32,000 bases of DNA from Nitrosomonas europaea (GTDB lineage: Bacteria; Pseudomonadota; Gammaproteobacteria; Burkholderiales; Nitrosomonadaceae). The translations under genes and the position numbers were made by a program. Under the pieces are notes generated by a model. It was not told the DNA's origin and did no database searches. It worked only from the letters and a program-made list of their open reading frames with translations. Each line of letters starts with the position of its first letter. The stretch's first letter is position 1. Below, piece after piece: positions 11,578-13,225 of this stretch. The stretch is taken from assembly GCF_900167395.1 (NCBI RefSeq), contig NZ_FUWK01000016.1, positions 16,230-48,229 on the forward strand, given 5' to 3'.

Positions 11578-12336
11578 CTATTTCACACAGATACCCGCGC
11601 AGTCGGCACCTCCCTTGGCAGGATCACAGTCATCCGAGGGATCATCCACACACTTCATACCTTCGGGGCAGGGAAAACCGGCAATCCCTCCACACATTTG
11701 TTTAGGCTTCTGACCATCGTATGCAGCGCTTCCTTTGGGCGGATAATCAACACGTTTTCCCTCTCCACGCCCGGGCAGCTCGGTGGTACCCAGCTTCACG
11801 ATATCGTGTATCCTTTTCGATTGAACAGTTTCGACATCGATCGATTGAACTTCTCCCTCCACGGGTCGTGCGGTATATACCCCTACCACATCCAGTGGAA
11901 CAGGACTTTTCACTACCAGAAACCCCTCCAGAAATGCAAAATCTACGCATACCCCATTAATCGGGCAAAAGTAGCCGGCAATGTCAAAGCAATTTACTCC
12001 GACAGCACCATCCGGTTGCAGTGTAATTCCCTTGAACGGCGTAACATTGAAAGGGCCTGGTTCGGAGCCCATCTGAGTGGAAAGTGCCACCTTGGCGGCA
12101 ACCGTGATTTTCTTGCTGGCAGGATTGTGAATATTGATGATAGTACGGTATATGCCTTTCGCCAGAGTACCGTCCTGGTGTGGCAGTAATAACGAACACG
12201 CCACTTTTGCAGCATACTGATATTCGGTTTTGATTGTCTCGTATTTTGCTGTTTCTGCCTGAGTACCGATTGGATTAAACAAAAGCCATAACCCGAGAAC
12301 AATTGAAAAGAGTTTGATCACATTCGATTGTTTCAT
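11578..12336 (-). CDS. secreted protein of unknown function with C-terminal 6-Cys module
   Basis: SD GAGGTGG lies before ATG 12336. Signal peptide [27 protein letters not shown]. Central domain with YAAKVAC...[12 protein letters not shown]...LDVVGVYT, a pattern I recall from uncharacterised proteins. C-terminal module [38 protein letters not shown] is shared with the next gene. Confidence 0.75.
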   Translation of the reverse strand: [252 protein letters not shown]

Positions 12337-12517
12337 GATAGCCACCTCACCGAGTGTTGTGCCCTCTACAGATACCATGTTCCTGATGTGTATCGCATCC
12401 GCACCGGGCTAATAACAGGCCCACTTCATCTTGCCCAACCCGGGAGACAGAGTGGCCTCTCACGTTACCTGCAAAATATTTTTACCTCCATTTTTCTAAA
12501 AAACACATAAAAAGATG

Positions 12518-13225
12518 TCACTGACCCTGCCCGGCAATACATATCCCCGCACAATCTGCTCCCCCGTGTTCGGGATCGCAGGTATCACCCGGATCATCAA
12601 CACATGCCAGGCCATCCGGACACCTGATTCCTGCAATTCCTCCGCAAGCCTGGGGTTCTGCTGTTTTACATTCACCCTCATGATCGATAGAAACACCTGC
12701 CGCAGCCGCTCCACAGGCATTACCATAAGTTTTTCCGTCACAACCGCAAACCGGATTGAACTCTCTCGTGCAGATTGTTGGCCTGGTTTTACAGACACCT
12801 TGCGCATCAGCAACTTTGCACTGGCCGATGCCCAAATCACAGTACTGCTCGGCAGGACAGGCCAATCCCTGGATCGTGCCGCAAACTTGTGGTTGTAATT
12901 GAGGTTGTGGGGGGTTGCCTTCCTCACAACCCGCTACGACCAGAGAAACAGAAAGCACGATCAACCAGGTGATCAATGCATTCAGATATCGTGGCAATTC
13001 CTTCCTGGTCTTGCGCGTGATCGATGGTGGCGACAGACCCCGGCCAGAACTGAACGCCCCATTGCCGGCACCGAAATCGGAAGAAAAGTAAAGTTGTGGA
13101 TTAAAACCAGAACAGCCTGATCCGGGTAAACCCAGGGCAGAAGTAAATTGCGTGGGGGACCGCTTTCCTGCCAAAACACACGCATTTCGAGCTTGAGTTC
13201 CGGCCTGATTTTTCTGCTGTTTCAT
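12518..13225 (-). CDS. membrane-anchored cysteine-rich protein with Kazal-type inhibitor domain
   Basis: Strong SD AAGGAGGA lies 5 nt before ATG 13225. Basic low-complexity N-terminal region, then TM/lipobox-like segment [20 protein letters not shown]. Kazal pattern [35 protein letters not shown]. C-terminal module [36 protein letters not shown]. Confidence 0.8.
   Translation of the reverse strand: [235 protein letters not shown]

What the first reader, a model, noticed from the sequence alone, without database searches (positions are those of the whole stretch)
11578..13225. A shared six-cysteine C-terminal module on two adjacent exported proteins, one also carrying a Kazal domain
Seen: the last ~40 residues of both genes match. 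They read [37 protein letters not shown] (nt 11581-11697) and [37 protein letters not shown] (nt 12521-12649). The DNA is clearly diverged, so this is not a recent duplication. The 235-aa protein adds a related half-motif ([15 protein letters not shown]) fused to a Kazal pattern ([15 protein letters not shown]...HEGEC). The 266-aa protein instead has a ~180-aa domain with YAAKVAC...[12 protein letters not shown]...LDVVGVYT, which I know only from uncharacterised proteins. Established: Kazal domains are tight-binding serine-protease inhibitors. Inference: the 6-Cys unit is a small disulfide-knotted binding or inhibitor module of unknown target.
Basis: partly seen in the sequence, partly recalled or inferred. 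Interest (0 to 1): 0.65.

Follow-up and report, generated by a model that had tools for sequence, protein, structure and literature searches.

The report
Unnamed six-cysteine module, Kazal-linked
Two neighbouring exported proteins of a Nitrosomonas ammonia oxidiser end in the same small six-cysteine module, which belongs to a large, patchily distributed domain family that has no name; it is a free-standing relative of the hairpin that precedes bacterial Kazal protease-inhibitor domains, and what it binds is still unknown.

Summary
The two C-terminal modules are 28/39 identical (E 1e-17). Their third codon positions are saturated, so the duplication is old.

The module reads CGGxAGxxCPxGxxCVDDPxDxCDPxxGGADCxGIC. 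It matches no Pfam or NCBIfam model and no PDB sequence. A profile of it finds 1,493 protein clusters, some with up to 16 tandem copies. Most of these proteins look exported, and many look like lipoproteins. All six cysteines are 95-100% conserved.

The first four cysteines are homologous to the hairpin that precedes bacterial Kazal domains (hhalign 96.8%). The model of that hairpin plus its Kazal domain matches follistatin (FS) domains. The module is therefore an FS-N/EGF-like hairpin that has lost its Kazal body and gained one cysteine. It is not a Kazal domain, although databases call the 266-aa family "Kazal".

The real Kazal domain in the 235-aa lipoprotein has Arg at the predicted P1 position.

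In a subset of Nitrosomonas, in Nitrotoga and in a Methyloglobulus, both module-bearing genes travel with an exported PPC-tyrosinase gene.

What the module does is inferred only. My best guess is a disulfide-stabilised, possibly Ca2+-stabilised, docking or scaffold module rather than an inhibitor head.

Novelty: a new variant of a known kind. Interest is moderate.

The parts
12518..13225 (-). Gene B: 235-aa ORF encoding a Kazal lipoprotein (N-terminal extension + lipoprotein signal + FS-like unit + six-Cys module)
   Evidence: ORF. Pfam Kazal_1 E 7.6e-9. 548 homologues, and the orthologues are ~150-aa 'Kazal-type serine protease inhibitor family' lipoproteins of Nitrosomonas, Methylocaldum, Methylococcales and Rhodocyclaceae.
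12986..13225 (-). B residues 1-80: lineage-specific N-terminal extension that contains an SpvB/TcB-N-like stretch (residues 32-82)
   Evidence: Pfam SpvB PF03534 scores 30.7 bits against a cut-off of 22. The extension is found only in the closest relatives P0121-P0126, with in-frame deletions. The orthologues' ATG is CTG at L81 here. A strong SD, GGAGAAGGAGG, precedes ATG 13225. There is no other copy in the genome.
12926..12985 (-). B lipoprotein signal peptide [20 protein letters not shown] (lipobox Cys100)
   Evidence: Aligns with the N-termini MNALITLL...LVGC of the 150-aa orthologues.
12818..12883 (-). B N-sub: four-Cys hairpin [22 protein letters not shown] (FS-N-like), a partial relative of the module
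   Evidence: hhalign of the module profile against the N-sub profile: 96.8%, E 3e-10, covering C1-C4. The AF2 model has the same three-strand pattern as the module. Together with the Kazal part it matches follistatin, FSTL, SPARC and hevin FS domains.
12668..12793 (-). B Kazal domain (non-classical: Cys V is missing and there is an extra Cys in PVCGC); predicted P1 = Arg154 (codon 12764-12766)
   Evidence: Pfam Kazal_1. PDB sequence hits: ovomucoid E 1.8e-15, GmSPI-2 E 1.6e-12, LDTI. The alignment [21 protein letters not shown] / [21 protein letters not shown] puts Arg where OMTKY3 has P1 Leu18. Foldseek to OMTKY3, LDTI and infestin gives rmsd 1.4-1.8 A.
12539..12646 (-). Six-Cys module of B ([36 protein letters not shown])
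11578..12378 (-). Gene A: 266-aa ORF (probable start M15 at 12336; Sec signal peptide 12256-12336), made of a beta-sandwich N-domain, a Tyr/Pro/Lys linker and a six-Cys module
   Evidence: ORF. 354 homologues, mostly in nitrifiers, all starting at MKQ.... No Pfam, NCBIfam or PDB relative.
11809..12240 (-). A N-domain (~145-165 aa), a conserved beta-sandwich of unknown function
   Evidence: The AF2 strands have pLDDT 80-97. The best PDB fold match is weak: TM1070 (1nc7), E 4.5e-4, TMt 0.65, and the ASRT fold 2ii8. There are 32 invariant columns across 67 sequences.
11941..11991 (-). Half-module embedded in the A N-domain: [17 protein letters not shown]
   Evidence: BLASTP sub-hit. hhalign of this loop against the module profile: 94%, E 1.2e-7, over 20 columns.
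11713..11748 (-). Conserved linker motif [12 protein letters not shown] between the N-domain and the module
   Evidence: Y, P and Y are >=90% conserved across 67 sequences although the model has pLDDT <50 here. The motif is kept even in orthologues that lack the module (P0116, P0120).
11587..11694 (-). Six-Cys module of A ([36 protein letters not shown])
9230..11570 (-). Downstream genes of the same strand-run: p197 (10977-11570), p71 (10765-10980) and a tyrosinase with two PPC domains (9230-10747). These are context, not carriers of the module.
   Evidence: Pfam Tyrosinase E 2.3e-42 and PPC x2. The order B-A-p197-p71-tyrosinase recurs in loci L007, L008, L011, L014, L018, L025 and L033 (A-p197-p71-tyrosinase in L024, L035, L043) and in the genome sample.

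Best explanation
WHAT IT IS (shown; about 0.85 sure).

The shared unit is an autonomous extracellular mini-domain of ~36-40 residues with six cysteines. Its consensus is C-G-G-[IFL]-A-G-x-x-C-P-x-G-x-x-C-V-D-D-P-x-D-x-C-D-P-x-x-G-G-A-D-C-x-G-I-C. It belongs to a large family that the libraries searched do not name.

It is the free-standing form of the four-Cys hairpin ('N-sub') that precedes the Kazal body in bacterial follistatin-like (FS-like) units. The stretch from C1 to C4 is homologous to N-sub. The last cysteine (C6) lines up with the first Kazal cysteine. C5 sits in a four-residue insertion that the Kazal-attached form lacks. The module is therefore an FS-N/EGF-like hairpin that lost its Kazal body and gained a cysteine. 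My guess is that the new cysteine pairs with the one that would otherwise bond into the Kazal body.

The module is not a Kazal domain.

In gene B it follows a real Kazal domain whose predicted P1 residue is Arg, which points to a trypsin-like target. In gene A it caps a beta-sandwich domain found mainly in nitrifiers.

HOW IT WORKS (inferred; about 0.4 sure).

The module is non-catalytic. It is a rigid hairpin held by three disulfides. Its five nearly invariant Asp residues (DDPxDxCDPxxGGAD) probably form a Ca2+ site.

I propose that it serves as a docking or scaffold element rather than a reactive-site inhibitor. In tandem arrays it would build stalks or give avidity. As a single C-terminal copy on A and B it would give two co-inherited exported proteins the same binding surface. 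Both would then be brought to one partner or place in the envelope. The most likely setting is the exported copper-oxidase system (PPC-tyrosinase, and in relatives a multicopper/glyoxal-oxidase fusion) with which both genes travel in Nitrosomonas.
For: Identity:
- The module has no Pfam hit even at E<=10, no NCBIfam hit and no PDB sequence hit.
- A profile search finds 1,493 clusters at E<=1e-3 and 788 at E<=1e-10, with 2-16 copies per protein among the top hits.
- The cysteines are 95-100% conserved and the Asp, Gly and Pro positions 71-95% conserved in 488 distinct modules.
- Copy number on the same N-domain is 0, 1, 2 or 3.
- hhalign of module against N-sub: 96.8%, E 3e-10.
- HMMER aligns the first Kazal Cys with C6, with a 4-residue gap and Ala at the C5 position. 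MAFFT gives the same alignment for P0240.
- In the AF2 model of mature B (mean pLDDT 80.8), N-sub and module have the same beta1-beta2-beta3 pattern.
- Foldseek's best hits for that model are follistatin entries 2b0u, 3hh2 and 5jhw over 125-131 of 136 residues. FSTL1, FSTL3, SPARC and hevin FS domains match over 72-88 columns, which is more than the ~45 of a Kazal domain alone.

Export: 81% of the full-length representatives have a hydrophobic N-terminal stretch and 48% have a lipobox-like motif.

Docking rather than inhibitor head:
- The scaffold and the acidic loop are highly conserved.
- Variable positions are spread over the module rather than concentrated at one site.
- Kazal heads in the same protein sets do vary at P1: CTREY, CTEEY, CTFEY and CTANY in P0133.
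- Copy number is variable.

Common setting for A and B:
- B-A adjacency is seen in 11 of about 45 A loci.
- In the 120-genome family sample, 11 of 12 A-positive Nitrosomonas carry the orthologous tyrosinase, and in 8 of these it lies 1-2 kb downstream of A on the same contig and strand. Nine carry B.
- A Methyloglobulus (gammaproteobacterium) has tyrosinase-A-B in a different order (L068).
- A multicopper/glyoxal-oxidase gene lies between B and A in five loci.
Against: No binding partner, no Ca2+ site and no disulfide map was shown. The module itself is modelled only moderately well (pLDDT 55-82).

The module often shares proteins with inhibitor-type domains: Kazal 10, Antistasin 5, Pacifastin 1 and potato inhibitor I 1 of 149 proteins. 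This fits an inhibitor role as well as an accessory role.

Outside Nitrosomonas, Nitrotoga and Methyloglobulus the module and the A gene are not next to a tyrosinase. Examples are Nitrosospira, Nitrosococcus oceani, Arenicellales, Sorangium and Peribacteria. A tyrosinase-specific role cannot therefore be general.

Seven variant modules lack C4 and C5 together. This fits a C4-C5 bond at least as well as the C5-C6 bond I propose.

Pfam FOLN and EGF profiles do not match the module or N-sub.
Confidence: 0.5

Rival explanations
1. The six-Cys module is itself a canonical-type protease inhibitor head of a new family. Gene B would then be a two-headed inhibitor (Kazal plus module) and gene A an inhibitor-tagged protein.
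For: It is compact, has three probable disulfides and is exported. It co-occurs in the same proteins with Kazal, Antistasin, Pacifastin, potato inhibitor I and WAP-like sequences. Tandem multi-head arrays are common. Family-specific residues cluster around C2 and before C3, which could be a contact loop.
Against: There is no match to any inhibitor family profile or structure. No single hypervariable, P1-like position was found. The most conserved feature is an acidic DDPxDxCDPxxGGAD stretch, which is unlike an exposed reactive loop. Tandem copies within one protein are nearly uniform, as in Sorangium L047. The homologous N-sub in FS-like units is the accessory part, not the inhibitory part.
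Confidence: 0.2
2. The module has no specific ligand. It is a protease-resistant structural cap or spacer that stabilises the C-termini of exported proteins or builds rigid stalks.
For: 56% of the top proteins end within 8 residues of a module. Copy number is freely variable, 0-3 in A orthologues and up to 16 elsewhere. Orthologues of A without the module exist (P0116, P0120).
Against: Surface residues outside the cysteines are strongly conserved across phyla. There are family-specific residue patches that are kept within the A and B lineages. Third codon positions are saturated while 75% protein identity is kept between A and B. All this argues for more constraint than a spacer needs.
Confidence: 0.2
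3. The terminal module acts like the small metallocarboxypeptidase inhibitors (potato PCI, leech LCI). The short tail after the last cysteine (…GICVK, …GICKAK) would plug a carboxypeptidase. The comparison to PCI and LCI is from my own knowledge.
For: The module is often the very C-terminus, followed by a 1-5 residue tail that frequently ends in Lys. Its size and three-disulfide, EGF-like character resemble PCI.
Against: Internal copies in tandem arrays have no free tail. The tails are not conserved: compare the window's GICIAGQGQ with GICKAK. There is no sequence relation to PCI or LCI, which are solved structures.
Confidence: 0.05
4. The cysteines are free thiolates that bind Cu(I) or another metal. 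The module would be a copper-handling tag in organisms that depend on copper enzymes.
For: It occurs in ammonia oxidisers and methanotrophs and sits next to copper oxidase genes.
Against: The cysteine spacing (7, 5, 7, 8, 3) is that of disulfide domains, not of CxC or CxxC metal sites. There is no conserved His or Met. The module is homologous to a disulfide-bonded FS-N hairpin. The proteins are exported by Sec or as lipoproteins into an oxidising compartment. Most carriers (Sorangium, Peribacteria) have no copper context.
Confidence: 0.03

Closest known systems
N-terminal EGF-like hairpin of follistatin (FS) domains (FS-N; Pfam FOLN PF09289), as in follistatin, FSTL1/3, SPARC/BM-40, hevin and agrin
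   Same: It is a small disulfide-stapled beta hairpin directly in front of a Kazal-like body. The AF2 model of B's N-sub plus Kazal matches these FS domains, and the module is homologous to that N-sub.
   Different: The module stands alone without a Kazal body. It has six cysteines rather than four and carries a conserved acidic loop, DPxxGGADC. It occurs in long tandem arrays and is mostly bacterial. The FOLN and EGF profiles do not match it.
Non-classical Kazal inhibitors (MEROPS I1): Galleria GmSPI-2 (PDB 4hgu/2m5x), leech LDTI (1an1/1ldt), ovomucoid third domain
   Same: The central domain of B is one of these. PDB hits are E 1.6e-12 to GmSPI-2 and E 1.8e-15 to ovomucoid, with rmsd 1.4-1.8 A on the model. 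The reactive-site loop C-T-R-E-F aligns with them. The presence of a Kazal-like protein in Nitrosomonas europaea was already noted in PMC1236909.
   Different: The six-Cys module is not a Kazal domain. It has no profile match, no helix and a different cysteine pattern. Database names that call the A family 'Kazal-type serine protease inhibitor domain protein' are not backed by Pfam Kazal models.
Ca2+-binding six-Cys modules of similar size, such as the LDL-receptor class A module (comparison from my own knowledge)
   Same: About 40 residues, six cysteines, similar spacing of the first three cysteines (C-x7-C-x5-C), a cluster of invariant Asp near the C-terminal half, and use as a repeat in extracellular proteins.
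   Different: There is no profile match. The spacing of the last three cysteines differs. Ca2+ binding is only inferred here.
Arthropod prophenoloxidase control by Kazal and pacifastin inhibitors (system-level analogy, from my own knowledge)
   Same: A phenoloxidase/tyrosinase gene with removable-looking C-terminal domains sits next to a Kazal inhibitor gene.
   Different: No activating protease is encoded in the cluster. No processing has been shown. The link is restricted to some lineages.

Membership tests
Kazal domain (Pfam PF00050/PF07648, MEROPS I1): test of the six-Cys module | Match to the Kazal profile | tested here: not met
   Protein A has no Kazal hit at E<=1. The isolated modules have no Pfam hit at E<=10.
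Kazal domain: test of the six-Cys module | Cysteine and Tyr pattern C-x7-C-x6-Y-x3-C, with a central alpha-helix packed on a small sheet | tested here: not met
   The spacing is C-7-C-5-C-7-C-8-C-3-C. DSSP of the models shows strands only in the module.
Kazal domain: test of B residues 145-186 | Profile match, Kazal fold and reactive-site loop | tested here: met
   Kazal_1 E 7.6e-9, above the cut-off. PDB hits to ovomucoid, GmSPI-2 and LDTI. Foldseek rmsd 1.4-1.8 A. P1 = Arg154 by alignment to OMTKY3 Leu18. Cys V is absent and an extra Cys follows Cys III, so the domain is a non-classical variant.
Kazal domain: test of B residues 145-186 | Tight-binding inhibition of a serine protease | not testable with these tools
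   This needs recombinant protein and enzyme assays.
Follistatin-like (FS) domain: test of B residues 115-186 (N-sub plus Kazal) | A two-part, ten-Cys unit (EGF-like hairpin plus Kazal-like body) with the FS fold | tested here: met
   Ten cysteines. Foldseek prob 0.96-1.0 to follistatin, FSTL1 and FSTL3 and 0.80-0.98 to SPARC and hevin FS domains, over 72-131 columns. This rests on an AF2 model with pLDDT ~90 in this region.
Follistatin-like (FS) domain: test of B residues 115-186 | Match to the Pfam FOLN profile for the hairpin | tested here: not met
   Only Kazal models hit. There is no FOLN hit at E<=10.
FS-N/EGF-like hairpin: test of the six-Cys module | Homology to the hairpin of FS-like units | tested here: met
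   hhalign 96.8%, E 3e-10 over C1-C4. HMMER places N-subs on the module model. The strand pattern is the same. The follistatin alignment spans the module region.
FS-N/EGF-like hairpin: test of the six-Cys module | Disulfide connectivity 1-3, 2-4 (and 5-6 as in EGF) | not testable with these tools
   No coordinates were returned. The natural variants are ambiguous: the CCCCxC form (N-sub) fits a 5-6 bond, and the CCCxxC form (7 cases) fits a 4-5 bond.
Other small inhibitor or Ca2+ modules (Pacifastin, Antistasin, TIL, LDL-A, TSP3, EGF_CA) | Profile match | tested here: not met
   The module alone has no Pfam hit at E<=10. The PDB profile search gives only chance-level hits, E>=1.5.

The most novel reading that the evidence does not exclude
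The module would be the docking element of a previously unrecognised bacterial control system for an extracellular phenoloxidase. Kazal lipoprotein B and beta-sandwich protein A would use the same module to bind the PPC-tagged tyrosinase or the protease that matures it. Activation of a secreted copper oxidase would then be gated by a protease inhibitor at the cell surface. This would be a bacterial counterpart of the arthropod prophenoloxidase cascade. The conserved Tyr-Pro-Pro-Lys linker of A might be a tyrosinase substrate for cross-linking.
Probability: 0.1. Interest if true: 0.75.

Novelty: new variant of a known kind. Interest (0 to 1): 0.45.

Why it matters
A domain family with at least ~1,500 sequence clusters has no entry in Pfam or NCBIfam. 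It is spread patchily across nitrifiers, methanotrophs, myxobacteria, CPR bacteria and some eukaryote data sets. Carriers that have no Kazal domain, such as the A family, are being labelled 'Kazal-type protease inhibitor' in public annotation. Defining the family would correct those names. It would also show how a hairpin can leave its Kazal partner and become a module of its own.

For nitrifier biology, the result points to a conserved, unstudied gene set: a Kazal lipoprotein, a beta-sandwich protein found mainly in nitrifiers, two small proteins, a PPC-tyrosinase and sometimes a multicopper/glyoxal-oxidase fusion. This set can be tested directly in Nitrosomonas europaea.

Tried and rejected
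- Pfam (E<=10) and NCBIfam on the module, and PDB sequence searches with the module profile and the A-family profile, found nothing usable.
- The fold search with the A model gave only a weak TM1070/ASRT-like beta-sandwich match for the N-domain and nothing for the module.
- Neighbourhoods of module genes in Sorangium So ce56 and a Peribacteria MAG hold no protease or oxidase. They hold a sigma factor, a TamB-like gene, a giant Big-domain protein and a GATase gene.
- Partner domains in ten further module proteins are almost all unannotated.
- Literature searches for Nitrosomonas with Kazal or tyrosinase, for bacterial Kazal, and for locus tags NE1240-NE1245 gave only one useful item: a 2005 remark that N. 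europaea has a Kazal-like protein (PMC1236909). One transcriptome paper mentions NE1243. I could not map that tag to these genes, so I did not use it.
- My first alignment for the B structure model used a wrong reading frame. I redid it before folding.
- I considered LDL-A, TSP3, knottin, pacifastin, metallothionein-like and sorting-signal readings. I rejected or down-weighted them for lack of any profile match, because the cysteine spacing does not fit, or because many copies are internal.
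Full report
**1. The observation**

The window lies in a 2.7-Mb draft genome. Its best protein matches are named Nitrosomonas. Earlier notes of this scan call it Nitrosomonas europaea.

On the minus strand there is a run of genes:
- B: 12518-13225, 235 aa.
- A: 11578-12378, 266 aa.
- A 197-aa ORF and a 71-aa ORF.
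- A tyrosinase with two PPC domains.
- A cyclooxygenase-like haem peroxidase.

BLASTP of A against B gives one significant match. It is 28/39 identical, E 1e-17, and covers exactly the two C-terminal six-Cys stretches. From C1 to C6 these lie at 11587-11694 and 12539-12646.

Their DNA is 65.7% identical. Third codon positions are only 30.6% identical, which is saturated, while the protein is 75% identical.

A six-frame search and a genome search find only these two full copies in the genome.

**2. Gene models**

Orthologues of A all start at MKQ.... The likely start here is therefore M15 (ATG 12336), which gives a Sec signal peptide ending ...GTQA|ET.

Orthologues of B are ~150-aa lipoproteins that start MNALITLL...LVGC. 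In the window that ATG is CTG (L81). The frame runs on upstream to ATG 13225, which has a strong Shine-Dalgarno sequence.

The 80-residue extension contains a stretch that passes the Pfam threshold for the N-terminus of SpvB/TcB-type proteins (30.7 bits against a cut-off of 22). Only the closest relatives share the extension. They show in-frame deletions in it (235, 232, 226 and 214 aa). This hints that it is translated. No other copy exists in the genome. This is a side issue and does not touch the module.

**3. The module is a real, mobile domain family without a name**

In A orthologues the same N-terminal domain carries a varying number of tandem modules:
- 0 copies in P0116 and P0120.
- 1 copy in most.
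- 2 copies in Nitrosococcus oceani.
- 3 copies in Nitrobacter vulgaris.
- In Arenicellales, one module followed by DUF6438.

The module alone gives no Pfam hit even at E<=10. A and B give no module-related NCBIfam hit. A 25-sequence profile finds nothing in the PDB sequence set.

The same profile, run against 1.84 billion cluster representatives, finds 1,493 proteins at E<=1e-3 and 788 at E<=1e-10. The best 150 are listed; the 149 not seen earlier carry 2 to 16 matched stretches each.

In 488 distinct modules the six cysteines are 95-100% conserved. So are G-G after C1, P after C2, the V-D-D-P-x-D before C4, D-P after C4, G-G-A-D before C5, and G before C6.

Of the 133 full-length top proteins, 81% have a hydrophobic N-terminal stretch and 48% have a lipobox-like motif. 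56% of the 149 end within 8 residues of a module.

**4. Who has it**

A scan of one genome per species found at least 475 coding stretches. The organisms are:
- Nitrosomonas, Nitrosospira, Nitrosovibrio, Ca. Nitrotoga and Nitrobacter vulgaris DSM 10236.
- Methyloglobulus and Arenicellales.
- Sorangium (lipoproteins made of 4-6 modules), Nannocystaceae, Archangium, Myxococcaceae and Bradymonadia.
- Candidatus Peribacteria and other Patescibacteria, Margulisiibacteriota, a Chloroflexia MAG and Ca. Electrothrix.

Two cluster members come from eukaryote data sets: a EukProt entry for Chasmostoma and a Peltigera assembly.

The family is nonetheless rare. None of 400 other genomes sampled evenly across the phylum has the module or the A N-domain. 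So it is widespread but very patchy.

**5. What it is related to**

B consists of a four-Cys hairpin (N-sub, [22 protein letters not shown]), then a Kazal domain, then the module.

Myxobacterial proteins consist of tandem [N-sub + Kazal] units. Their N-sub begins CGGIAGxxCxxGxYC, just like the module.

Profile-profile comparison of module against N-sub gives 96.8% probability, E 3e-10, across C1-C4. HMMER and MAFFT both align the first Kazal cysteine (…ADAQG-V-C) with module C6 (…ADCxG-I-C). C5 sits where N-sub has Ala, and the module has four extra residues (DPxxGG).

The AF2 model of mature B has mean pLDDT 80.8, about 90 in N-sub plus Kazal and 58-82 in the module. It shows the same three-strand pattern for N-sub and for the module.

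Foldseek against the PDB puts follistatin first (2b0u, 3hh2, 5jhw; E 2-8e-4, prob 1.0). It aligns 125-131 of the 136 residues, so the alignment runs into the module. FSTL1, FSTL3, SPARC/BM-40, hevin and IGFBP7 FS domains align over 72-88 columns. Plain Kazal inhibitors cover ~40-45 columns at rmsd 1.4-1.8 A.

The conclusions are:
- N-sub plus Kazal is a bacterial follistatin-like unit.
- The six-Cys module is its hairpin part standing alone, with one added cysteine.
- I infer that the added C5 gives C6 the partner it would otherwise find in the Kazal body. I could not verify this, because no coordinates are returned.
- Seven variant modules lack C4 and C5 together. This fits a 4-5 bond equally well.

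The module is not a Kazal domain. It has no profile match and no helix, and its cysteine pattern is different. The database names that call the A family 'Kazal-type ... domain protein' are therefore misleading.

A third, partial copy sits inside the N-domain of A: [17 protein letters not shown] (hhalign 94%, E 1.2e-7).

**6. The Kazal domain of B**

It passes Pfam Kazal_1. It hits ovomucoid (E 1.8e-15), GmSPI-2 (E 1.6e-12) and LDTI in the PDB.

The alignment [21 protein letters not shown] / [21 protein letters not shown] puts Arg154 at the position of the P1 Leu18 of turkey ovomucoid third domain. The identity of that P1 residue is from my own knowledge.

Orthologues have Arg or Lys there in most cases. 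A trypsin-like target is therefore predicted.

That N. europaea has a Kazal-like protein was already noted in 2005 (PMC1236909).

**7. Gene A**

Its N-domain is a well-modelled beta sandwich. It has only a weak fold match to TM1070 and the ASRT fold and no sequence relative in the PDB. It is strongly conserved, with 32 invariant columns over 67 sequences.

It is restricted mainly to nitrifiers: 43 of 120 Nitrosomonadaceae genomes against 0 of 400 others in the phylum.

Between the N-domain and the module lies a disordered linker with a nearly invariant Y-P-P-K...Y motif.

**8. Context**

The order B-A-p197-p71-tyrosinase recurs in seven Nitrosomonas loci, and A-p197-p71-tyrosinase in two further Nitrosomonas loci and in Ca. 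Nitrotoga. A Methyloglobulus has tyrosinase-A-B.

Figures from the family sample:
- 11 of the 12 A-positive Nitrosomonas genomes carry the orthologous tyrosinase.
- In 8 of them it lies 1-2 kb downstream of A on the same strand.
- 9 carry B.
- The other Nitrosomonas genomes listed lack A, and most lack all three.

In five loci a 977-aa fusion of multicopper-oxidase and glyoxal/galactose-oxidase domains lies between B and A. In two loci it is decayed, and in the window it is gone.

Nitrosospira keeps A, an FS-plus-module protein and a 50%-identical tyrosinase, but they are usually unlinked. N. oceani, Arenicellales, Sorangium and Peribacteria loci show no oxidase next to the module gene.

So A and B belong to an exported copper-oxidase gene set in some lineages. 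The module as such is not tied to tyrosinase.

**9. How it probably works**

Shown: it is a small, exported, cysteine-rich, independently shuffled domain that is homologous to the accessory hairpin of FS-like units.

Inferred:
- Three disulfides.
- A Ca2+ site formed by the five conserved Asp residues.
- A role as a docking or scaffold element.

I prefer docking to 'inhibitor head' for these reasons:
- The homologous hairpin is the non-inhibitory part of FS units.
- The most conserved feature is an acidic loop, not an exposed variable loop.
- Tandem copies are nearly uniform. Kazal heads in the same organisms vary at P1.
- Copy number varies freely.

Residues that separate A-type from B-type modules cluster next to C2 and before C3 (FP / MK or KK against I-K/P/Q / Q-T/V). 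That is a plausible contact patch.

The rivals are an inhibitor head (0.2), a ligand-free cap or spacer (0.2), a carboxypeptidase plug (0.05) and thiolate metal binding (0.03).

**10. Verdict**

The finding is a real, unnamed domain family whose ancestry can now be stated. It sits in a conserved but unstudied gene set of nitrifiers. It is a new variant of a known kind, the FS-N/EGF-like disulfide hairpin, and is not categorically new. Its function remains untested.

Noticed in passing
window 12986-13225 (-): The first 80 codons of gene B are absent from the 150-aa orthologues. They carry a stretch that passes the Pfam threshold for the N-terminus of SpvB/TcB-type proteins. The orthologous ATG is CTG here. 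It looks as if the start of a lost Tc/SpvB-like gene was fused to the lipoprotein gene. Close relatives keep the frame open with in-frame deletions.
   Followed up: partly
window 11941-11991 (-): The beta-sandwich domain of A contains an embedded half-module, [17 protein letters not shown], that is homologous to the first half of the six-Cys module (hhalign 94%, E 1.2e-7).
   Followed up: partly
window 11713-11748 (-): The disordered linker of A has a nearly invariant Y-P-P-K-x-S-x-x-Y-G motif. It is kept even in orthologues without the module. From my own knowledge it resembles Tyr/Pro/Lys-rich adhesive peptides, and it sits two genes upstream of a tyrosinase.
   Followed up: no
L004 4807-7740; also L007, L011, L018, L019; remnants in L014 and L043: In other Nitrosomonas a 977-aa fusion of multicopper-oxidase and glyoxal/galactose-oxidase (kelch) domains lies between genes B and A. 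It is decayed in two loci and absent from the window.
   Followed up: partly
L033 4983-6120 (Nitrosomonas nitrosa Nm90): The A and B modules of this genome are 83% identical in DNA and 69% identical at third codon positions, against 61-72% (DNA) and 22-44% (third positions) in the other ten loci. The first half is identical in protein. This points to local gene conversion between the adjacent genes.
   Followed up: partly
L049, L083, L020 (Nitrosospira); P0127: Nitrosospira carries a third architecture: an unannotated ~140-aa N-terminal domain (NRAVNINLGSTGGALD...), then an FS-like unit, then the module. It is present in nearly every genome of the genus, often in two copies.
   Followed up: no
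L003 / L059 / L082 (Arenicellales MAGs): Here the A N-domain plus module is fused to DUF6438 (PF20033).
   Followed up: no
P0268 (EukProt Chasmostoma), P0396 (Peltigera assembly), P0328, P0374: Module-bearing proteins also occur in eukaryote data sets, combined with WAP-like and VWC-like cysteine repeats. I did not check whether these are truly eukaryotic genes or contaminants.
   Followed up: no
window 10765-11570 (-): The 197-aa and 71-aa ORFs, which overlap in ATGA, are co-conserved with A and the tyrosinase in ten loci. The Methyloglobulus tyrosinase-A-B locus lacks them.
   Followed up: partly
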